Source: Nanobdellota archaeon (GTDB lineage Archaea > Aenigmatarchaeota > Aenigmatarchaeia > Aenigmatarchaeales > Aenigmatarchaeaceae). Taken from it: a stretch of DNA of 54,865 nt. Within the stretch, counting starts at the first letter, position 1. Every line of letters starts with the position of its first letter. Positions 2,928 to 47,197 of this stretch are shown here, in pieces. The DNA is taken from positions 1 to 54,865 of the forward strand of contig JAHIEG010000013.1 of NCBI GenBank assembly GCA_018901655.1. The letters are read 5' to 3'. Below the pieces are notes generated by a model. That model worked only from the letters and a program-made list of their open reading frames with translations, was not told the DNA's origin and did no database searches. Both the position numbers and the translations under genes were made by a program.

Positions 2928-3710
2928 ATGGAGATGACTGAAATTGAAGCAATGTTTAAACATCTAGGTCTTAAACATTATGAATCTAAAGCAATGATAA
3001 CACTTTTTAGTTATGGTAAAAATACTGCTGAACAAATTACTTCTTTATCTGGAATTCCATTACCTAGAGTTTATGATACAATGAATGGATTAGCAAAAAG
3101 AGGTTTTGTTTCTGTTTCTAAAACAAGACCAGAAATGTTCAAAGCAATTGATCCTAAAAGACTTCTATCTTTATTAGAGGAAGAAGAAACAAAAAAAACA
3201 AATAAAAAATTAAAAGAAATGAGCAGTATCATGCCTCAATTATTAAAACATATCAAACTAGTAGATAACGGCCACACAGATATTGAAGATGATATAATTG
3301 CTGTCATTAAACGAAGAGTCAATATTAGAAAAGATAGAGAAGAATTTCATATGTTAGCTAAAAAAGAAATTCTTGTATTTAGTGGTGACATGTCTTGGGT
3401 AAGACATGTTGAAGATCTTGTAAAAGATGCAATAAAAAGAAATGTTGATTATAAAATTATATATTGCAAAAATAATAAAGATTCTATTACAAATGCTAAC
3501 AAGTTTAAAAAATTGGGTGCAAAGGCTAAATACTTTAAAGATACAGCAGAATTAAGATGTTTAGTATTTGATAGAAAAGCTGTTTCTGTTATTATTAAAA
3601 AATATAAGGTTTCTGGAGATTTTGAATATAGCATTGTTAACATTCACAATTCGATAATTGCTGATGTATTTGCTAGACACTTTGATTCTGTTTGGAAACA
3701 GGCAAAGTAA
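2928..3710 (+). CDS. TrmB-family transcriptional regulator
   Basis: N-terminal wHTH LGLKHYESKA...SGIPLPRVYDTMNGLAKRGFV...RPEMFKAIDP; C-terminal PLD-like effector domain. Confidence 0.92.
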   Translation: MEMTEIEAMFKHLGLKHYESKAMITLFSYGKNTAEQITSLSGIPLPRVYDTMNGLAKRGFVSVSKTRPEMFKAIDPKRLLSLLEEEETKKTNKKLKEMSSIMPQLLKHIKLVDNGHTDIEDDIIAVIKRRVNIRKDREEFHMLAKKEILVFSGDMSWVRHVEDLVKDAIKRNVDYKIIYCKNNKDSITNANKFKKLGAKAKYFKDTAELRCLVFDRKAVSVIIKKYKVSGDFEYSIVNIHNSIIADVFARHFDSVWKQAK

Positions 3711-3740: not shown

Positions 3741-4427
3741 ATGAGTAAATTGCCACCGCTAATTACGAGAAAAAAATATATTCACGAAACCATTAAAAAT
3801 AAAATTAAAAATTACACCGATAGCTTTTATCATATAGGAGATGAAATTGAATTAACACTATCTAATATTAAACCTATTGAAATCGGTGGAAAAGAAGTTT
3901 ATCCAGATTATATCTTTCTTGGAAGAAGTTCAACAGATCAGAAAAAAATGAAATTGGTTAGAAATCTAATTCAACAACCAATTAATAAATTGATAGAAAA
4001 ATACGACCTAATAAATCAATATAAGTTTTTAAGTTTCACAGAAAACTACTTACCATACGTACCTAATGACAGAGATTATACACTTTTTACAAAAACCACA
4101 ATTAACGATAAGGAAAAAGAAAAAATAAAAGATTATTTACAAACCAATATACCGTTAATACAAAACGCACCTAAAGCAGAATTTAGAATAGAAACTTTGG
4201 ATTCCTGGAAAAGGATTCTTAGAACATTTCCTTATGAAAAGCCACATAGAGATCACATTAAAGATATCCCATTTAATTCCGTCATCCTTCAATCGAATAA
4301 TGATCCTAAAATCAACGAATTGTTAAAAAATATAAAAACAAAAACCGGAAATCCAAGAACATATGAAGAGTTTAAAATCGAAGTGAAAGAATTTCAAAAC
4401 GCAGTTGAAATCAGTCCTTGGTTTTAA
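3741..4427 (+). CDS. hypothetical protein
   Basis: 228-aa ORF, no recognisable motif. Confidence 0.6.
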   Translation: MSKLPPLITRKKYIHETIKNKIKNYTDSFYHIGDEIELTLSNIKPIEIGGKEVYPDYIFLGRSSTDQKKMKLVRNLIQQPINKLIEKYDLINQYKFLSFTENYLPYVPNDRDYTLFTKTTINDKEKEKIKDYLQTNIPLIQNAPKAEFRIETLDSWKRILRTFPYEKPHRDHIKDIPFNSVILQSNNDPKINELLKNIKTKTGNPRTYEEFKIEVKEFQNAVEISPWF

Positions 4428-20519: not shown

Positions 20520-20834
20520 TTATTTTATTTTTGATCCATTTTTAACTGGTTTATCAACTGTCAGTAAAACTGGTTCTCCATCTGTCGCAGCTAAAAGCAT
20601 ACCATTACTTTCAACTCCTCTTATTTTTGCAGGTTCTAAATTATTAACAACAATTATTTGCTTTCCAATCAGTTCTTCAGGAGAATAAGCTGTTTTGATT
20701 CCAGCTACTATTGTCTTTTCTTCTCCAACATCTATTGTTAACTCTAAAAGCTTATCTGCTCCTTCAACTTCTTTTGCTTCTTTTATCTCTGCTACTCTTA
20801 GATCAAGTTTTGAGAACTCAACATATGTTATCAT
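20520..20834 (-). CDS. stand-alone tRNA-binding OB protein (MetRS C-terminal/Trbp111-like)
   Basis: FSKLDLRVAEI, GADKLL, NLEPAKIRGVESNGMLLAA; start reassigned to 20834. Confidence 0.92.
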   Translation of the reverse strand: MITYVEFSKLDLRVAEIKEAKEVEGADKLLELTIDVGEEKTIVAGIKTAYSPEELIGKQIIVVNNLEPAKIRGVESNGMLLAATDGEPVLLTVDKPVKNGSKIK

Positions 20835-21046
20835 TCTTTCACCTCTTTCAATGCTTTCTCTATAGTAACTATCTGTATTCCACTGAGATCGTCTGAGTCG
20901 TCTATAGCTTCTGACATAATTATGTCTGTCATTCTTTCTCTTCCCAAGTCTTTCCAATCAGGCTTCATAAACATTATCGACATAAACCTATCAAACTCTT
21001 CTTCTGATAATGATTCAATCTTTCTTCGTATCTCTTCTTTATTCAT
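20831..21046 (-). CDS. small acidic hypothetical protein
   Basis: 71 aa, GAGGTG SD, ATGA overlap with the next gene. Confidence 0.65.
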   Translation of the reverse strand: MNKEEIRRKIESLSEEEFDRFMSIMFMKPDWKDLGRERMTDIIMSEAIDDSDDLSGIQIVTIEKALKEVKE

Positions 21047-21048
21047 TT

Positions 21049-22548
21049 TTACACCTCTATTTTTTTGAAAAGAACTTCACCTTTAATTATTTTTCCTTCA
21101 AGTTTACCCCATTCTAAATCTTTCCAAACCGGAGCTTCTGTTAAACCAAGTTGTTCTCTTATTCTATCACATGTATCTGGAACAAATGGATGAAGTAAAA
21201 TAGATGAAAGTCTTATTCCTTCCAATAGTTCATACATTATCTTTCCAAGTTCATCCTTATCTTTAATCTTCCAAGGCTCTTTATCATTTACATATTTGTT
21301 AAGCTCATAAACGAATTTCATAATTTCTTCAACTGCATGATGTAGTTTAAATTCATTAATTAAATTTTCAACTTTTGTTGGAACATCTTTAAACTTCTCT
21401 TTAATCTCACCATCATATTTAGGAGGAACTTTTCCATCAAAATTCTTTTCAGTCAGAGTTAAAACTCGATTAACAAGATTACCTAATCCGTTTGCTAAAT
21501 CACTATTTGTTTTTGATATAAGTTCTGCATTACTATAATCTGCATCATCATCTGAAGTTATTCCGGCCAATAAATAATATCTTACAGCTTCTGGTCCATA
21601 CTTCTGTATCTGAGTCAAAGGATCAATAACATTTCCAGTACTTTTTGACATCTTCTTTCCTCTCGATGAAAGAAAACCATGAACTAGTAATTGTTTTGGA
21701 AGTGGTAGTCCTACAGATAACAACATTGCTGGCCAAAAAACTGCATGAAATCTTATAATATCTTTACCAACCAAATGAACATCAGCTGGCCAATATTTAT
21801 TAAATTTCTCTTTATCAGTTGTATAACCGATACCTGAAAGATAATTAGTTAGAGCATCACACCAAACATACATTGTATGTGTTTCATCCCCCGGAACCGG
21901 TATTCCCCACGATAATTTTTCTTTAGATCTTGAGAAACTTACATCTTCTAAACCAGTTTTTATAAAATTCAATATTTCATTTTTCTTAGAAGTTGGTATT
22001 ATCTTATATTCATCAGATTCAATTAATTTAATTAATTGGTTTTGATATTTTGAAAGTTTGAAAAAGTAATTTTCTTCATGAAGTATCTCTGGCTCTTTAT
22101 TATGTAGCTTACATTTTCCTTGAAATAAATCTGAATCTTTTACAAAAGCTTCACAACCAGTACAATATTTTCCTTCATATTCTTTTTTATAAATATCTCC
22201 TGATTTGACTAACTTAGTCCATATATCTTGTGCTGTTGGCCAGTGTCTTTCTTTATCTGTAGTTCTAATATAATCAGTGTTAGAAACCTTAAACAGTTTC
22301 AATATCTCTTTAATATATCCTGTATTTATGTTAACAAATGCTTGCGGAGTTTTATCAGCTTCTTTAGCTGCTCTAAAATTTTTAATTCCATGTTCATCTG
22401 AACCTGTTAAGAAAAACACATCATCTCCTTTTAATCGATGAAATCTAGCTATAGCATCAGCTTGTATTTCCTCTAAAGCATGCCCTATGTGAGGAGGCCC
22501 ATTAGTATAAATTATACTAGTTGTAATATAAAACTTATTTTTTATCAT
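21049..22548 (-). CDS. metG: methionyl-tRNA synthetase (short, single-knuckle form)
   Basis: YTNGPPHIGH, TGSDEHG, YVWCDALTNY, GKDIIRFH, KMSKS; ATG at 22548. Confidence 0.97.
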   Translation of the reverse strand: MIKNKFYITTSIIYTNGPPHIGHALEEIQADAIARFHRLKGDDVFFLTGSDEHGIKNFRAAKEADKTPQAFVNINTGYIKEILKLFKVSNTDYIRTTDKERHWPTAQDIWTKLVKSGDIYKKEYEGKYCTGCEAFVKDSDLFQGKCKLHNKEPEILHEENYFFKLSKYQNQLIKLIESDEYKIIPTSKKNEILNFIKTGLEDVSFSRSKEKLSWGIPVPGDETHTMYVWCDALTNYLSGIGYTTDKEKFNKYWPADVHLVGKDIIRFHAVFWPAMLLSVGLPLPKQLLVHGFLSSRGKKMSKSTGNVIDPLTQIQKYGPEAVRYYLLAGITSDDDADYSNAELISKTNSDLANGLGNLVNRVLTLTEKNFDGKVPPKYDGEIKEKFKDVPTKVENLINEFKLHHAVEEIMKFVYELNKYVNDKEPWKIKDKDELGKIMYELLEGIRLSSILLHPFVPDTCDRIREQLGLTEAPVWKDLEWGKLEGKIIKGEVLFKKIEV

Positions 22549-23648
22549 TTTATGCACCATATTTAAGATTTCTTTCTATAACATTTAGCCTTGCTAAATC
22601 CATATCGTTTCTTCTCTTTTTATGTTTTAGGTATGGTTCTAATGAATCAAATAGCCTTAATAAATATGATTTGTTGCCAGTATAAACGCCCCAGCAATCT
22701 TGATTCTGATTTCTAATACCACTTCTACTTTCCAATCCAAAATTTGTTTTTATTCCCAATATATTTAGTTTATTATGAATTTGATAAAGTATCTTTTTAT
22801 CATAGGATCTTAAACGAAATTTGGCCATATTACTATAAATTCCGATATTGCCTTCGGCATCCGTGTATCCTGCTAAAAATGAAAAGAAATATTTTTCATT
22901 ACCCAATATCCAATTATAAATATAATTTTCTTTTGGTAATAGGAAAGAAAAAGAGTTATTCATTTGACATTGAGTATAAAATACACTATTATGCTTTTTT
23001 GTATAAAAATGTCCGTATTTTTTGAAAAGGCTTCGAATTAATTCAACCTGTTCAGTTTTGGTGGTATTTGTTTTAAGTATAATTATTGAACCAATTCTTT
23101 TGGCGTGTAAATCACCTATTCTGAAACCAATTAAATATGCTTTTTCTTCCAAATCCCCAGAAAAATCTTTTTTAAGATATTTTGTACATGCTTCTGAAGT
23201 AGTACGTAATTTTATATTATGTAATTTCATATTTTTGAAAATTGTTGCTATAGAACAATTGAACTTTTTTGCTATTTTTGATAACGGGAGTCTTCTTTTA
23301 CTATATAAATATATTAATTCGCCTTTCAATATTTCAATTTTCTCCAATCGTCGTGTCTTTATTTTGGATTCTTCCAATTTTCTACCAATCGTAGAATTTC
23401 GACAATTATATAATTTAGCTATTTTGTAGGTAGAAAGTTTCTTTTTCAAATATAGATTTACTAATTCTTTCTTAGAAATAGAAATTCTTTTTTTTGGTAT
23501 TCTTCTTGGAATATCATATTCTTTTAGTCTGTTTTGGATAACTGTTGGATCACAAGCATATTCTTTTGCAATTTTATATGTGGATAATATTTTATTTACA
23601 TACATTTTTTCTAATTCTTTTTTTGGTATATTAATTTTCTTAATCTTA
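22498..23648 (-). mobile_element. putative homing element: endonuclease gene plus recoded metG 5' end (boundaries approximate)
   Basis: Two versions of the MetRS N-terminus flank the endonuclease (KFYISTAIIYTNG upstream, KFYITTSIIYTNG downstream). Confidence 0.7.
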
Positions 23649-23656
23649 ATCACCAT
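22550..23656 (-). CDS. free-standing LAGLIDADG homing endonuclease with 3 N-terminal HTH repeats
   Basis: AYLIGFRIGDL and FLAGYTDAEG motifs; three ~50-aa repeats EL..LY....LS..IAK.YNC. Confidence 0.9.
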   Translation of the reverse strand: MVIKIKKINIPKKELEKMYVNKILSTYKIAKEYACDPTVIQNRLKEYDIPRRIPKKRISISKKELVNLYLKKKLSTYKIAKLYNCRNSTIGRKLEESKIKTRRLEKIEILKGELIYLYSKRRLPLSKIAKKFNCSIATIFKNMKLHNIKLRTTSEACTKYLKKDFSGDLEEKAYLIGFRIGDLHAKRIGSIIILKTNTTKTEQVELIRSLFKKYGHFYTKKHNSVFYTQCQMNNSFSFLLPKENYIYNWILGNEKYFFSFLAGYTDAEGNIGIYSNMAKFRLRSYDKKILYQIHNKLNILGIKTNFGLESRSGIRNQNQDCWGVYTGNKSYLLRLFDSLEPYLKHKKRRNDMDLARLNVIERNLKYGA

Positions 23657-23705
23657 TTGTATAAATTATTGCTGTACTTATGTAAAATTTAATTTTAATC
23701 ACCAT
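23646..23705 (-). pseudogene. stranded metG 5' fragment (MVIKIKFYISTAIIYTNGD*)
   Basis: 10/13 aa identical to the MetRS N-terminus; ends just before the HIGH motif. Confidence 0.85.
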
Positions 23706-23820
23706 CGCATCCAACTGCTTCAAGATATTTATCTATATCAAAAGGAGACCAATCTTTGCATACTTGTTTAACCTTTTTACAAACCTTGATCTTAATACAA
23801 TTATTGCAGGTCTTCTTCAT
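23695..23820 (-). CDS. small Cys-rich protein (41 aa), not in ORF track
   Basis: MKKTCNNCIKIKVCKKVKQVCKDWSPF...; TATA-like TTTATAAA upstream. Confidence 0.55.
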   Translation of the reverse strand: MKKTCNNCIKIKVCKKVKQVCKDWSPFDIDKYLEAVGCDGD

Positions 23821-23880
23821 AACTCTTGATTATATTGTAAGTTTATAAATTTCACGCGACCCAAACCTTTAAATAGTATT

Positions 23881-23922
23881 ATGAATATATATTCATTATA
23901 GGATACCGAATATGTATTCATA
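23881..23922. promoter_or_regulatory. tandem palindromic operators upstream of the DUF5320-DUF134 operon
   Basis: Perfect 16-bp ATGAATATATATTCAT (23881-23896) plus near copy GAATATGTATTC, directly after TTTAAATA. Confidence 0.6.
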
Positions 23923-23938
23923 ACCGAGGTGAAATAAA

Positions 23939-24025
23939 ATGCCAGATAAAGATGGAACAGGCCCAAGATCAAGAAGCCCAAGACCAAAAGGAAAAAAGAA
24001 AGGAATGAAAAAGGGAAACTGTTAA
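23939..24025 (+). CDS. DUF5320-like micropeptide (28 aa)
   Basis: MPDKDGTGP...GNC; GAGGTGA SD; shares its N-terminal motif with the next gene. Confidence 0.65.
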   Translation: MPDKDGTGPRSRSPRPKGKKKGMKKGNC

Positions 24026-46481: not shown

Positions 46482-47114
46482 GTGGATGATTTGTCTTTGT
46501 TATATGGTATAATGGCTGGAGATGGGTGTCTTTCTAGGGGATTAAAAAATCGAACTATATCTATAACATGCAATTATTATAATGATAGGCCCTTCTTTGA
46601 TGAAGTAGTAATTCCATTATTAAATAAAATAAGAGGAAAGAAAACCAAATATAGATTAAGACCTAAATATGGTAAAATAGAAATTAATTTTAGCGACAAG
46701 GAGCTTTTCAATAAACTAGTATCAATTGGCTTTCCGGTTGGTAAGAAGTGGAGCAAGTTAGAAATACCTGACATATTTCAAAGTAATAAATATACTAAAA
46801 ATATCATAGCTGGTTTCTTTGCAACAGATGGTTCTGTGGTAAGGGCTAACAATCATGGGATCTTATACCCACGTTTAGAAATCCATAATAAATGTCATAA
46901 AATTTTAGAACAGATGCAATCATTTCTATTAACAAATAACATTAAAGCAAACATCTATAAAATTAAGCCGAGGAATGGTTTCTCTATAAGCAGGCTAGAT
47001 ATGAATGGAAAGATAAACTTATTAAAGTTTGAATCCTTAATAGGGTTTATAAATCCTAAACACAAAAGTTTATTTGAAGGATTTAGAGATGGGCGGGTGG
47101 CTCAGCCTGGTTAG
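46482..47114 (+). CDS. free-standing LAGLIDADG homing endonuclease overlapping tRNA-Ile
   Basis: LYGIMAGDGC and IAGFFATDGS motifs, IGFINPKH; stop TAG lies within the tRNA D arm. Confidence 0.88.
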   Translation: MDDLSLLYGIMAGDGCLSRGLKNRTISITCNYYNDRPFFDEVVIPLLNKIRGKKTKYRLRPKYGKIEINFSDKELFNKLVSIGFPVGKKWSKLEIPDIFQSNKYTKNIIAGFFATDGSVVRANNHGILYPRLEIHNKCHKILEQMQSFLLTNNIKANIYKIKPRNGFSISRLDMNGKINLLKFESLIGFINPKHKSLFEGFRDGRVAQPG

Positions 47115-47197
47115 AGCGCTACATCTATTTTTGGAAGAAATTAGAGGCGATGCTGATAACGTAGAGACCGGGAGTTCAAATCTCCCTCTGCCCACCA
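47091..47197 (+). tRNA. tRNA-Ile(GAU) with 29-nt intron at position 30/31; CCA encoded
   Basis: Acceptor GGGCGGG/TCTGCCC, D arm GCTC/GAGC, anticodon CTACG-CTGATAA-CGTAG after intron removal, T arm GGGAG-TTCAAAT-CTCCC. Confidence 0.93.
47123..47151 (+). other. archaeal BHB tRNA intron
   Basis: Central helix CGCT/GGCG, 3-nt bulges AC^A and AT^G, flanking helices TCTA/TAGA and AG/CT. Confidence 0.88.

What the first reader, a model, noticed from the sequence alone, without database searches (positions are those of the whole stretch)
22498..23705. Free-standing homing endonuclease at the 5' end of metG, flanked by two recoded copies of the MetRS N-terminus
Seen: on the minus strand, an unannotated mini-ORF (23705-23646) reads MVIKIKFYISTAIIYTNGD*. 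Functional MetRS, 1.1 kb downstream, starts MIKNKFYITTSIIYTNG-PPHIGH. A LAGLIDADG gene with three HTH repeats fills the space between them. Its ATG overlaps the AAT-GGT (NG) codons of the stranded fragment, and its stop lies 1 nt before the metG ATG. The two 13-codon copies encode nearly the same peptide but differ at most codons (aaa ttt tac ata agt aca gca ata att tat aca aat ggt vs aag ttt tat att aca act agt ata att tat act aat ggg). Inference: the element inserted just before the conserved HIGH motif, left the original 5' end as a leader that translationally couples the nuclease, and supplied a recoded, cleavage-resistant 5' end that regenerates the essential gene without splicing. Established: endonuclease genes that carry part of their target gene are known from fungal mitochondria (e.g. 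atp6/atp9 elements). I am not aware of this being described for an archaeal aminoacyl-tRNA synthetase.
Basis: partly seen in the sequence, partly recalled or inferred. Interest (0 to 1): 0.9.

Follow-up and report, generated by a model that had tools for sequence, protein, structure and literature searches.

The report
Homing endonuclease that restarts metG
A selfish DNA-cutting enzyme gene sits inside the start of an essential tRNA-charging gene of a tiny archaeon and keeps that gene alive by supplying a new start, a trick that turns out to be widespread in ultra-small archaea and bacteria.

Summary
On the minus strand a 19-codon ORF (23705-23646) repeats the MetRS N-terminus. A 368-aa ORF with three HTH repeats and a double LAGLIDADG core follows (23656-22550). 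The complete metG then starts 1 nt after the nuclease stop (ATG 22548). The two 13-codon copies share 11/13 residues but 28/39 bases.

The closest relative lacking the nuclease (G012) has the same upstream gene joined directly to metG. Its 5' end matches the stranded copy better (43/54 nt) than the working copy (34/54).

The arrangement is not a one-off. In 56 of 80 loci holding homologues of the nuclease, from DPANN archaea and CPR bacteria, metG lies directly downstream. In 20 of 56 testable loci a stranded metG N-terminal fragment lies upstream; controls gave none. Other members of the family sit at the ends of uvrA, groEL, lepA and iscU.

No intron or intein signature was found. My reading is a free-standing homing endonuclease that invades metG just before the HIGH motif and regenerates the gene with its own start and first codons. 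This mirrors, at the 5' end, the mitochondrial "mobile ORF" elements.

Cleavage, resistance of the working copy and translational coupling are untested. In one nuclease clade the stranded fragment travels with the nuclease.

The parts
23695..23820 (-). Upstream neighbour, a 41-aa Cys-rich ORF. Its TAA overlaps the start of the stranded metG fragment.
   Evidence: ORF list. An orthologue with 75.6% aa identity lies directly upstream of metG in relative G012 (L022), which marks the empty site. No Pfam family was found.
23646..23705 (-). Stranded 5' fragment of metG. It is a 19-codon mini-ORF holding the start codon and N-terminal codons up to just before the HIGH motif.
   Evidence: Sequence. 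Local alignment score 68 against a shuffle maximum of 39. Profile score 24.6 against control maxima of 1.8 and 1.4. It matches the G012 metG 5' end at 43/54 nt.
23688..23705 (-). First copy of the 18-nt direct repeat, at the metG start codons M-V-I-K-I-K.
   Evidence: Two matches in the window against 0.12 expected; 1 of 100 shuffles reached 2.
23639..23656 (-). Second copy of the 18-nt repeat. It forms the first six codons of the nuclease ORF. Four or five of these codons are extra compared with most family members, so they look like a second, nested relic of a metG start.
   Evidence: the family N-terminus is M-x-K-I-x-I-P-K, and the window protein and P0002 begin MVIKIK. That this is a relic of an earlier insertion is inference.
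22550..23656 (-). Homing endonuclease gene, 368 aa.
   Evidence: ORF. Single copy in its own genome. 695 homologues in one database and 2264 cluster representatives in another. Model pLDDT 90.
23222..23623 (-). Three tandem helix-turn-helix repeats (residues 12-145), presumed to be an extra DNA-binding module.
   Evidence: Pfam HTH_38, HTH_23, HTH_11 and HTH_7 hits. Three 3-helix units in the model. The repeats also match phage families annotated as HNH endonuclease. P0002 and contigs from a cold-seep run lack one repeat, a 150-nt deletion at 23460-23611.
22562..23152 (-). Double-motif LAGLIDADG nuclease core (residues 169-365). Motif 1 is LIGFRIGDL and motif 2 is LAGYTDAEG.
   Evidence: G181 D182 and D266 A267 E268 G269 are invariant in 18 sequences. 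Foldseek E-values are 1.5e-9 to 1e-5 to PI-PfuI, I-AniI, I-DmoI, I-Tsp061I and I-SceI, with TM 0.69 on I-DmoI.
22498..22548 (-). New 5' end of metG: ATG plus 16 codons that repeat the stranded fragment with different codons.
   Evidence: 28/39 nt and 11/13 aa identical to the fragment. It matches the G012 allele at 34/54 nt, against 43/54 for the fragment.
21049..22548 (-). Working metG (MetRS catalytic and anticodon-binding domains), with a canonical P-P-H-I-G-H.
   Evidence: Pfam tRNA-synt_1g at 3.2e-110 and NCBIfam metG TIGR00398 at 9.8e-150. The nearest MetRS sequences belong to nuclease-free relatives of the same family, at 58-72% aa identity.

Best explanation
A free-standing LAGLIDADG homing endonuclease gene has invaded the coding start of metG. 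The nuclease has three N-terminal HTH repeats and a double nuclease core.

The inserted DNA begins just before the codons of the HIGH motif. It ends the old reading frame after 19 codons. It encodes the nuclease, and it ends with a fresh ATG plus a differently coded copy of the first 16 codons. MetRS is therefore made whole, without RNA or protein splicing.

The old 5' end stays behind as a short leader ORF. All three reading frames abut or overlap, so they are probably read from one transcript that starts upstream of the 41-aa neighbour gene.

The element belongs to a large family in DPANN archaea and CPR bacteria. The family spreads by cutting nuclease-free alleles of conserved genes near one end. 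Repair then copies in the nuclease together with a replacement gene end. The two copies of the conserved K-F-Y-I-T-T stretch can serve as homology arms.

Shown here: the anatomy, the fold, the link to metG, the patchy distribution, the empty site and the recurrence of stranded fragments.

Inferred: cleavage at or near the HIGH codons, resistance of the linked allele, translational coupling, and repair-mediated spread.
For: **Anatomy and chance test.**

**Nuclease identity.** Motif residues are invariant in 18 sequences. The model has pLDDT 90. Foldseek top hits are solved LAGLIDADG enzymes.

**Not an intron.** No Rfam family was found in the window at gathering score, or in 22300-23950 at E<=1. 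The two junctions do not pair beyond shuffles, z -0.25.

**Link to metG.**
- 56 of 80 homologue loci have metG downstream on the same strand. It begins within 170 nt of the nuclease match in 55 of them and 781 nt after it in L077.
- L059 is cut by its contig end but shows a metG start.
- Both loci from the metagenome scan are also linked to metG.

**Mobility.**
- None of 29 relatives' metG loci holds the nuclease.
- Four of 42 genomes of the order match it at E<=1e-20. Only G000 and G025 have it beside metG.
- Pairwise identities of nuclease and MetRS correlate weakly, r 0.32 over 1378 pairs. Some pairs reach 76% in MetRS but 38% in the nuclease; others reach 64-67% in the nuclease but 43-51% in MetRS.
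- The nuclease tree needs at least 4 switches between Archaea and Bacteria.

**Empty site.** G012 has the orthologous 41-aa gene and then metG. The stranded fragment matches that allele at 43/54 nt. The working copy matches at 34/54. The whole gene matches at 69.8%.

**Recurrence.** A profile of the MetRS N-terminus finds a fragment upstream of the nuclease in 20 of 56 loci. The best control scores were 1.8 (reverse strand of the same 56 regions) and 1.4 (upstream regions of 28 nuclease-free loci).

**Target hint.**
- All fragments end before or within the P-H-x-G codons.
- Among 57 nuclease-linked alleles, 32 keep P-H in frame, 20 have another residue there and 5 carry a 1-nt insertion there.
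- All 29 nuclease-free alleles keep P-H.
- These counts are my reading of the table.

**Independent DNA.** Contigs from a run of another study, 88-91% identical, span the nuclease/metG junction.
Against: - No biochemical or RNA data exist for this element. Cleavage, the cut site and resistance are all inferred.
- The window's working copy keeps a canonical P-P-H-I-G-H, so nothing visible explains resistance.
- Codon use in the conserved K-F-Y-I-T-T stretch does not differ between linked and nuclease-free alleles.
- 36 of 56 linked loci show no stranded fragment above control level. The duplication is therefore not obligatory, or it decays.
- In one nuclease clade the fragment tail A-I-D-Y-[IV]-N plus its junction is shared, while the metG behind it is of three sequence types. 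This does not fit a simple 'resident 5' end left behind'.
- The comparison of 43/54 against 34/54 nt rests on 18 codons.
- The nuclease-free control set comes from a single archaeal order, while the linked set is broad. The contrast at P-H is therefore not phylogenetically matched.
- The fragment/nuclease junction of the window is seen only in contigs that may be the source of this DNA.
- Most records are metagenome bins, and bin labels can be wrong.
Confidence: 0.75

Rival explanations
1. This rival keeps the same element but gives the copies a different origin. The upstream fragment, or at least its 3' part, is cargo of the mobile element. It would be a relic of an earlier host that now serves as the left homology arm, not the original 5' end of this genome's metG. 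Only the start region, or nothing, of the working gene would then be imported.
For: Loci L036, L038, L040, L045, L052, L057, L062 and L087 share a fragment tail A-I-D-Y-[IV]-N, a junction reading [YH]-[FS]-stop/K-I-R-T, and an A+T-rich spacer. Their working MetRS N-termini are of three types: T-T-P-I-Y-Y, T-T-A-[IV]-D-Y and T-T-T-I-A-Y. Six of these nucleases form one starred clade; L057 and L087 were not in the tree. In each locus the working N-terminus matches the type of the gene body behind it. The window's nuclease itself begins with six metG start codons, which looks like a carried relic.
Against: In the window the fragment is of the host family's own type, I-I-Y-T-N. It is closer to the nuclease-free relative G012 than the working copy is: 43/54 against 34/54 nt. 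It follows the orthologous upstream gene directly.
Confidence: 0.15
2. The nuclease is a domesticated, no longer mobile partner of metG. It might act as a DNA-binding regulator or an RNA chaperone, inherited together with the gene. The mini-ORF would then be an old scar with no present role.
For: The position upstream of metG is conserved across many phyla. There are three HTH repeats. Five loci have the nuclease fused in frame to MetRS. The nuclease tree is largely sorted by domain, with 4 changes against 14.9 in shuffles.
Against: The catalytic acidic residues are invariant. Distribution is patchy, with 2 of 42 genomes of the order and an empty site in the closest relative. Nuclease and MetRS similarities are weakly coupled. 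Sister lineages of the family sit at unrelated genes, namely uvrA, groEL, lepA and iscU, with duplicated gene ends at uvrA and iscU and borderline signals at groEL and lepA. That pattern fits a mobile element, not a metG regulator.
Confidence: 0.07
3. The 1.2-kb insert is an intron (archaeal bulge-helix-bulge or group I). It would be spliced so that the upstream fragment is joined to the HIGH codons, and the second N-terminal copy would be irrelevant.
For: Joining equivalent positions of the two copies would stay in frame, by construction. LAGLIDADG genes are common in archaeal rRNA introns (passages of PMC6125680 seen).
Against: There is no Rfam match. The junctions do not pair beyond shuffles. 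The downstream gene is complete, with its own ATG placed 1 nt after the nuclease stop. The same architecture occurs in bacteria and archaea, which lack a shared splicing machinery for such a site. An intron would not need to carry a copy of the exon.
Confidence: 0.02
4. The resemblance of the mini-ORF to the MetRS N-terminus is a chance product of an A+T-rich genome (30% G+C).
For: The peptide is rich in I, K, Y, N and T, which are favoured by A+T-rich codons. The window's G+C is 0.30.
Against: The alignment scored 68 against a shuffle maximum of 39. The profile scored 24.6 against control maxima of 1.8 and 1.4. There are 19 further loci with the same feature.
Confidence: 0.01

Closest known systems
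Mitochondrial mobile ORF elements (mORFs) that carry a foreign gene end: atp6 of Allomyces macrogynus; atp6, atp9, cox2 and nad3 of Glomus sp. (passages of PMC3630166 read)
   Same: An endonuclease ORF (LAGLIDADG or GIY-YIG) inserted in a protein-coding gene brings a duplicate of the displaced gene end. The displaced native end stays nearby. It is closer in DNA to relatives than the inserted copy, while the proteins stay nearly identical. No splicing is involved.
   Different: Those elements replace the 3' (C-terminal) end in fungal mitochondria. Here the 5' end of a chromosomal gene of an archaeon is replaced, and homologous elements do the same in bacteria. The element must therefore supply a start codon and depends on upstream expression signals. 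The nuclease carries three HTH repeats. Family members at uvrA show the 3'-end form.
Free-standing homing endonucleases of T-even phages ('intronless homing'; recalled, not read here)
   Same: A stand-alone nuclease gene lies next to the conserved gene it is thought to target. It spreads by repair of a break in nuclease-free genomes, with co-conversion of flanking sequence.
   Different: The phage enzymes are GIY-YIG or HNH proteins placed between genes. A 2026 paper states that free-standing genes are generally limited to intergenic sites so as not to disrupt host genes (passage of PMC13619312). Here the insertion lies within the coding start and is compensated by a duplicated gene end.
LAGLIDADG endonucleases in inteins and in group I or archaeal introns (PI-PfuI, I-DmoI, I-AniI)
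   Same: They share the same fold and the same catalytic motif positions. They also target highly conserved sites of essential genes.
   Different: The host gene is preserved by restarting it, not by protein or RNA splicing. The ORF has its own start and stop and is out of frame with both metG copies. No intron model matches.
Synthetic Cleave-and-Rescue (ClvR) gene drive (PMC6442612; search listing and start of abstract only)
   Same: It works on the same logic: a nuclease aimed at an essential gene is tightly linked to an uncleavable, recoded version of that gene.
   Different: ClvR is an engineered Cas9 system in diploid animals and carries a whole rescue gene at another locus. Here the system is natural, sits in the target gene itself, and replaces only the gene end. 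Resistance of the linked copy is not shown.

Membership tests
LAGLIDADG homing endonucleases (monomeric, two-motif) | Two LAGLIDADG motifs, each with an acidic residue at the catalytic position | tested here: met
   Motif 1 is L-I-G-F-R-I-G-D-L and motif 2 is L-A-G-Y-T-D-A-E-G. G181 D182 and D266 A267 E268 G269 are invariant in 18 aligned family members.
LAGLIDADG homing endonucleases (monomeric, two-motif) | Two alpha-beta-beta-alpha-beta-beta-alpha halves forming the DNA-binding saddle | tested here: met
   The AlphaFold2 model has pLDDT 90 and the expected order of helices and strands. Foldseek probability is 1.00 to PI-PfuI, I-AniI, I-DmoI, I-Tsp061I and I-SceI, with TM 0.69 normalised on I-DmoI.
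LAGLIDADG homing endonucleases (monomeric, two-motif) | Score above the curated Pfam threshold | tested here: inconclusive
   LAGLIDADG_3 scores 21.8 bits against a cut-off of 22.5. LAGLIDADG_1 scores 16.4 against 23.1. Many homologues carry PF14528 in precomputed annotation.
LAGLIDADG homing endonucleases (monomeric, two-motif) | Site-specific double-strand cleavage of a long target | not testable with these tools
Free-standing (intron- and intein-less) homing endonuclease genes | Own ORF with start and stop, not inside a self-splicing RNA or an intein | tested here: met
   The ORF is out of frame with both metG copies. No Rfam match was found. The junctions show no pairing.
Free-standing (intron- and intein-less) homing endonuclease genes | Sporadic presence among close relatives, with an identifiable empty site | tested here: met
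   None of 29 relatives' metG loci has it. Two of 42 genomes of the order have it beside metG. G012 shows the empty site.
Free-standing (intron- and intein-less) homing endonuclease genes | Cuts nuclease-free alleles, while its own allele is immune | not testable with these tools
   There is only indirect evidence: altered P-H or HIGH codons in 25 of 57 linked alleles against 0 of 29 nuclease-free alleles (my count; the control is not phylogenetically matched).
Gene-end-replacing mobile ORF elements (mitochondrial mORF type) | Nuclease ORF flanked by two copies of the same gene end, one in the working gene and one stranded | tested here: met
   Window. Twenty of 56 metG-linked loci. uvrA-linked loci L072 (65 against a shuffle maximum of 39) and L106 (89 against 41). 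iscU locus L076 (79 against 44).
Gene-end-replacing mobile ORF elements (mitochondrial mORF type) | The stranded (native) copy is closer in DNA to relatives than the working (inserted) copy | tested here: inconclusive
   The window matches G012 at 43/54 nt for the stranded copy against 34/54 for the working copy, over only 18 codons. In one nuclease clade the fragment follows the nuclease, not the host gene type.
Inteins | In-frame insertion in the host protein, with splicing residues at both ends | tested here: not met
   The nuclease ORF is in a different frame from both metG copies and has its own ATG and TAA. C-terminal tails of some homologues that look intein-like are the metG N-terminal codons read in another frame.
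Group I or bulge-helix-bulge introns | Conserved RNA core, or pairing of the two exon-intron junctions | tested here: not met
   No Rfam hit at E<=1. Cofold of the junctions gave -15.0 kcal/mol against a shuffle mean of -14.3, z -0.25.

The most novel reading that the evidence does not exclude
The family acts as a natural cleave-and-rescue drive in prokaryotes. It targets the DNA that encodes signature motifs at the ends of essential genes, which for metG is the class I HIGH motif. It has crossed between Archaea and Bacteria.

It has also forced an arms race on that motif. Linked MetRS alleles would escape cleavage by changing the otherwise fixed P-H or HIGH residues. In six loci they would escape by a 1-nt insertion inside the HIGH codons, which must then be read by programmed +1 ribosomal frameshifting.

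The window would show two nested relics of metG starts and so record serial invasions.
Probability: 0.3. Interest if true: 0.9.

Novelty: new variant of a known kind. Interest (0 to 1): 0.8.

Why it matters
Free-standing homing endonuclease genes are usually said to be confined to intergenic sites, because inserting into a gene would destroy it (passage of PMC13619312). This element shows another way in. It enters the coding start of an essential gene and restarts the gene behind itself.

The same strategy appears in hundreds of proteins from DPANN archaea and CPR bacteria, organisms with very small genomes and few other mobile elements. It is used at several core genes: metG, uvrA, groEL, lepA and iscU.

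Consequences:
- Annotation is affected. Wrong metG starts, nuclease-MetRS fusions and apparent frameshifts can all result.
- Signature motifs of aminoacyl-tRNA synthetases may vary because of this element.
- It offers a route for gene-fragment exchange between the two prokaryotic domains.
- The family is a pool of compact meganucleases whose likely targets can be read from their neighbours.
- It is a natural counterpart to synthetic cleave-and-rescue drives.

Tried and rejected
**Intron.** Rfam found nothing at gathering score on the whole window or at E<=1 on 22300-23950. A cofold of the two junctions was no better than shuffles. Rejected.

**Intein.** The frames and the own start and stop exclude it. 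Intein-like C-terminal tails in homologues proved to be metG codons read out of frame.

**Promoters and terminators.** The bacterial consensus scan gave 24 sites against 21.3 expected and no terminator. It is not informative for an archaeon.

**Locating the cut site.** I compared codon use in the K-F-Y-I-T-T stretch between linked alleles, nuclease-free alleles and stranded fragments. No systematic difference appeared.

**Co-conversion tract.** A sliding comparison with G012 shows 0.67 nt identity for windows starting at codons 0 and 10, rising to 0.73 at codon 20 and 0.87 at codons 30-40. The windows are too noisy to place a boundary.

**Sequencing runs.**
- No RNA holder was listed.
- No contig of the same strain lacking the insert was seen.
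- The cold-seep contig ends at 23651, so it does not show what lies upstream of that nuclease.
- One contig of a relative in run X1 aligns to 20587-20711 and again from 23704 upward, with unknown content between. It is not interpretable.

**Other searches.**
- The metagenome scan with the single protein gave only two distant loci, at 49% and 45% identity.
- ARAGORN found no tRNA, although Rfam reports one.
- groEL- and lepA-linked loci gave only borderline duplicate signals: L109 35 against 32, L101 33 against 31, L104 34 against 33. Other loci of these two sets scored below the shuffle maximum.
- Loci L113-L115, which are distant nuclease matches in the order, were not analysed.

**Things I could not see or use.** Supplementary files of papers were not opened. 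Supplements of PMC6125680 and PMC3630166 might list further cases.

Full report
**What is in the window.** All features lie on the minus strand and follow one another without gaps.
- A 41-aa Cys-rich ORF runs from 23820 to 23695.
- A 19-codon ORF runs from 23705 to 23646 and reads MVIKIKFYISTAIIYTNGD*.
- A 368-aa ORF runs from 23656 to 22550.
- One base later, at ATG 22548, comes a complete metG that runs to 21049.

Pfam and NCBIfam identify the last gene as methionine-tRNA ligase, with tRNA-synt_1g at 3.2e-110 and TIGR00398 at 9.8e-150. The mini-ORF and the MetRS N-terminus share 11 of 13 residues over K-F-Y...N-G but only 28 of 39 bases, and 8 of 13 codons differ. A local alignment of translated frames on the two sides of the middle ORF scores 68. 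Thirty shuffles gave a mean of 32.4 and a maximum of 39.

**The middle gene.** Pfam gives only near-threshold LAGLIDADG hits, with LAGLIDADG_3 at 21.8 bits against a cut-off of 22.5, plus several HTH families. Other evidence is clearer.
- An alignment with 17 homologues shows two motifs, L-I-G-F-R-I-G-D-L and L-A-G-Y-T-D-A-E-G, with invariant acidic residues at the catalytic positions.
- An AlphaFold2 model built on that alignment has mean pLDDT 90. It shows three 3-helix units at residues 12-145 followed by two alpha-beta-beta-alpha-beta-beta-alpha halves.
- Foldseek against the PDB returns solved LAGLIDADG enzymes first: PI-PfuI, I-AniI, I-DmoI, I-Tsp061I, I-WcaI and I-SceI. E-values run from 1.5e-9 to 1e-5, and the TM-score normalised on I-DmoI is 0.69.
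- The HTH repeats also match phage families annotated as HNH endonucleases.

The gene has one copy in its 665-kb genome.

**Not an intron, not an intein.** The ORF has its own ATG and TAA and is out of frame with both metG copies. No Rfam family matches the window at gathering score, apart from one tRNA elsewhere. None matches 22300-23950 at E<=1. The RNA around the two junctions does not pair better than shuffled sequence, at -15.0 against -14.3 kcal/mol, z -0.25. The downstream metG is complete by itself.

**The family and its neighbours.** The protein has 695 homologues at E<=0.001 in one database and 2264 cluster representatives in another. Where sources name them, the organisms are Woesearchaeota, Pacearchaeota, Nanoarchaeota and Patescibacteria. 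A scan of one genome per species found 160 loci, of which the best 80 were kept.

In 56 of these 80 loci, tblastn finds metG downstream on the same strand. It begins within 170 nt of the end of the nuclease match in 55 of them and 781 nt after it in L077. L059 ends 70 nt after the nuclease but shows a metG start. Two further loci from JGI metagenomes are also linked to metG.

The other 23 loci were placed by my reading of the ORFs and by a Pfam check on one representative of each kind:

| Neighbouring gene | Loci | Position relative to the nuclease |
|---|---|---|
| groEL | 8 | 3' end, tail to tail |
| lepA | 4 | 5' end |
| uvrA | 3 | 3' end |
| iscU | 3 | adjacent |
| aconitase-type large and small subunit genes | 1 | between the two genes |
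| another class I synthetase | 1 | upstream of it |
| rpsI | 1 | beside it |
| cut by contig end | 2 | unknown |

Duplicated gene ends flank the nuclease at uvrA. L072 scores 65 against a shuffle maximum of 39, and L106 scores 89 against 41. The same holds at iscU, where L076 scores 79 against 44.

**Evidence of mobility.**
- None of 29 metG loci of relatives (plus or minus 1.5 kb) holds a nuclease match.
- In the window's order, 4 of 42 genomes match at E<=1e-20. Only G000 and G025 have the gene beside metG.
- The nearest MetRS sequences belong to nuclease-free members of the same family, at 58-72% identity. MetRS of nuclease-linked loci are at most 52% identical. The body of the window's metG is therefore native.
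- Across 53 linked loci (one a duplicate), nuclease and MetRS identities correlate weakly, r 0.32 over 1378 pairs. Examples are L040/L069 (MetRS 76%, nuclease 38%) and L058/L060 (nuclease 64%, MetRS 43%).
- A quick maximum-likelihood tree of 52 nucleases needs at least 4 changes between Archaea (32 rows) and Bacteria (18 rows). It is otherwise sorted by domain, since shuffles give 14.9 changes. Bin labels may be wrong in places.

**The empty site.** Relative G012 (locus L022) has the highest MetRS identity, 72% over the 289 residues available. It carries an orthologue of the 41-aa gene (75.6% aa), followed by a 50-nt A+T-rich spacer and then metG beginning V-I-Q-I-K-F-Y-I-T-T-A-I-I-Y-T-N-A-K-P-H.

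Aligned by codon, the window's stranded fragment matches this allele at 43 of 54 bases and the working copy at 34 of 54. The whole gene is 69.8% identical, and 15-codon windows have sd 10% and a maximum of 89%. It rests on only 18 codons.

**Recurrence of the stranded fragment.** I built a profile from 80 MetRS N-termini and searched it against the three forward frames of up to 500 nt upstream of the nuclease. It scores between 2.4 and 26.5 in 20 of 56 testable linked loci, and the window scores 24.6. The best control scores were 1.8 (reverse strand of the same 56 regions) and 1.4 (upstream regions of 28 nuclease-free metG loci).

The fragments start with their own start codon. They stop at various points, from after I-T-T-S to after P-H-L, but never beyond the HIGH codons. 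In each locus the two copies differ at many synonymous sites, with 14-25 of 27 core bases identical.

**What complicates the simple story.** Loci L036, L038, L040, L045, L052, L057, L062 and L087 share the same fragment tail (A-I-D-Y-[IV]-N). They also share the same junction and an A+T-rich spacer with a TATA-like box. Yet the working MetRS behind them are of three sequence types. Six of these nucleases form one starred clade; L057 and L087 were not in the tree.

There the fragment, or at least its 3' part, has travelled with the nuclease. A model fits both patterns. In it the mobile unit lies between two copies of the very conserved K-F-Y-I-T-T coding stretch, and these copies act as homology arms. 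This is inference.

The window has its own trace of this. The nuclease ORF begins with M-V-I-K-I-K, the metG start codons. These are four to five residues more than the family's usual M-x-K-I-x-I-P-K start. They are encoded by an 18-nt repeat of the mini-ORF's start, found twice in the window against 0.12 expected. P0002, 89% identical, begins the same way. I read this as a second, older relic nested inside the first.

**Where it probably cuts.** Fragment end points cluster just upstream of the P-H-x-G-H codons. Reading the table, I count the following among 57 distinct linked alleles.
- 32 keep P-H in frame.
- 20 have another residue at P or H (I, V, A, L, C, G or F for P; S or T for H).
- 5 have a 1-nt insertion there.

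All 29 nuclease-free alleles keep P-H. Within the T-T-P-I-Y-Y type, 7 of 7 nuclease-free alleles read P-H-I-G-H, against 3 of 19 linked alleles with a canonical P-H-x-G-H. The control set comes from one order, so the contrast is suggestive and not a test. Codon use in the K-F-Y-I-T-T stretch does not separate the groups. The window's own working copy is canonical (P-P-H-I-G-H), so its presumed immunity is unexplained.

**Expression (inferred).**
- The TAA of the 41-aa gene overlaps the mini-ORF's ATG.
- The mini-ORF's TAA lies 8 nt after the nuclease ATG.
- The nuclease TAA lies 1 nt before the metG ATG.
- Compared with G012, the spacer holding a TATA-like box before metG is absent.

The three frames are therefore probably read from a transcript that starts upstream of 23820. 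No RNA data were available (recorded under Tried and rejected).

**Independent DNA.**
- A 10,253-nt contig of run X1 spans the whole stretch with one difference. It may be the source of this DNA.
- A second groundwater run, X2, holds two identical 260-nt pieces.
- Contigs of a cold-seep run from another study, X3, are 88-91% identical. They cover the nuclease and its junction with metG, with one extra T at 22547. They carry a 150-nt deletion that removes one HTH repeat, as in P0002. They end at 23651, so the upstream junction is not independently confirmed.

**Comparison with what is known.** The closest described systems are mitochondrial mobile ORFs that carry a foreign C-terminal gene end into atp6, atp9, cox2 and nad3. 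In those, the native end is stranded downstream and is closer in DNA to relatives (passages of PMC3630166). The present case is the mirror image at the 5' end. It lies in chromosomal genes of archaea and bacteria, and the nuclease carries HTH repeats. The uvrA-linked relatives show the 3'-end form.

Phage free-standing endonucleases (recalled) share the logic but sit between genes. A 2026 paper states that free-standing genes are generally limited to intergenic sites (passage of PMC13619312). The logic also parallels synthetic Cleave-and-Rescue drives (PMC6442612, listing and start of abstract only).

Five searches found no paper describing a homing endonuclease at metG or free-standing ones in these lineages:
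- LAGLIDADG with methionyl-tRNA synthetase;
- homing endonuclease with metG;
- free-standing homing endonuclease with candidate phyla radiation;
- LAGLIDADG, DPANN, Patescibacteria and free-standing;
- LAGLIDADG, free-standing, archaea, aminoacyl-tRNA synthetase, Woesearchaeota and Pacearchaeota.

The papers on CPR rRNA insertions (PMC11270868, passages) and on archaeal group I introns (PMC6125680, passages) deal with rRNA.

**Verdict.** One qualification applies: stranded fragments can travel with the element. The finding is a new variant of a known kind.

Noticed in passing
L042 ~4130-4200, L044 ~3384-3450, L046 ~3273-3340, L047 ~4127-4200, L053 ~4111-4180, L116 ~3600-3700: Six nuclease-linked metG alleles carry one extra base inside the HIGH codons, of the form C-A-T [C/A]-T-T [C/T] G-G-[C/G] C-A-C. 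The frame that encodes K-F-Y-I-T-T...P-H-[LI] runs into a stop within about 5 codons, and the +1 frame continues G-H-A-Y-E-K to the end of MetRS. For five of the six genomes this is the only metG found at E<=1e-30; L116's genome was not searched. This looks like a conserved programmed +1 frameshift at the presumed nuclease target. In L053 the stranded fragment ends exactly at that point.
   Followed up: partly
L068, L075, L079, L091, L101, L105, L109, L111 (groEL); L072, L088, L106 (uvrA); L089, L099, L104, L108 (lepA); L070, L076, L083 (iscU); L085 (class I synthetase); L073 (aconitase-type subunits): More distant members of the same nuclease family (35-43% identity) sit at the ends of other core genes. 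Gene identities were checked by Pfam on one representative each. Duplicated gene ends are clear at uvrA (L072, L106) and at iscU (L076), and borderline at groEL and lepA.
   Followed up: partly
table; e.g. L036, L038, L040, L045, L054, L056, L062, L069, L080, L093, L096, L100, L102: MetRS alleles linked to the nuclease often have a degenerate class I signature, such as H-L-G-G, H-V-G-A, H-L-G-S, S-V-G-T, T-I-G-S or S-I-G-H. In the T-T-P-I-Y-Y type, 7 of 7 nuclease-free alleles are canonical against 3 of 19 linked alleles. The control is not phylogenetically matched.
   Followed up: partly
L036 2959-6039, L038 1648-4665, L040 588-3212, L043 2738-5347, L069 2974-5418: In five loci the nuclease and MetRS lie in one uninterrupted open frame, with no stop between them. 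A Met lies a few codons before the K-F-Y motif in each. In several other homologues (P0005, P0018, L042, L046, L047) the nuclease ORF runs on into the metG N-terminal codons in another frame.
   Followed up: no
window 20520-21046 (-): MetRS is split in this genome. The tRNA_bind domain (Pfam 1.2e-29) is a separate 103-aa gene at 20831-20520. A 71-aa ORF with no Pfam match (21046-20831) lies between it and the synthetase body. In relative G011 the open frame is 618 aa, which suggests a fused form. The 71-aa ORF has no tblastn match in the fetched loci.
   Followed up: partly
window 23690-23720 compared with L022 (reverse complement 1060-771): Compared with G012, the window lacks the roughly 50-nt spacer, with its TATA-like box, between the 41-aa gene and metG. 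The 41-aa gene ends differently (G-C-D-G-D against A-C-D-N-E-D-D-S), and its stop overlaps the mini-ORF start.
   Followed up: no
window 23460-23611; protein P0002: A close variant of the nuclease lacks one of the three HTH repeats. It is 89% identical in protein, and the cold-seep contigs are 88-91% identical in DNA. The variant has a clean 150-nt deletion.
   Followed up: no
L040 ~590-650, L052 ~700-750, L057 ~2960-3000, L087 ~2960-3000, and L036, L038, L045, L062 upstream of the nuclease: A nuclease clade shares a conserved junction and spacer after the stranded fragment. In the fragment's frame it reads ...Y-[IV]-N-[YH]-[FS]-stop/K-I-R-T, and a TATA-like box lies about 25-40 nt before the nuclease start. 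This may be the element's own archaeal promoter.
   Followed up: no
window 47091-47194 (+): Rfam reports a tRNA spread over 104 nt (45.6 bits), while ARAGORN finds none. It may carry an intron.
   Followed up: no
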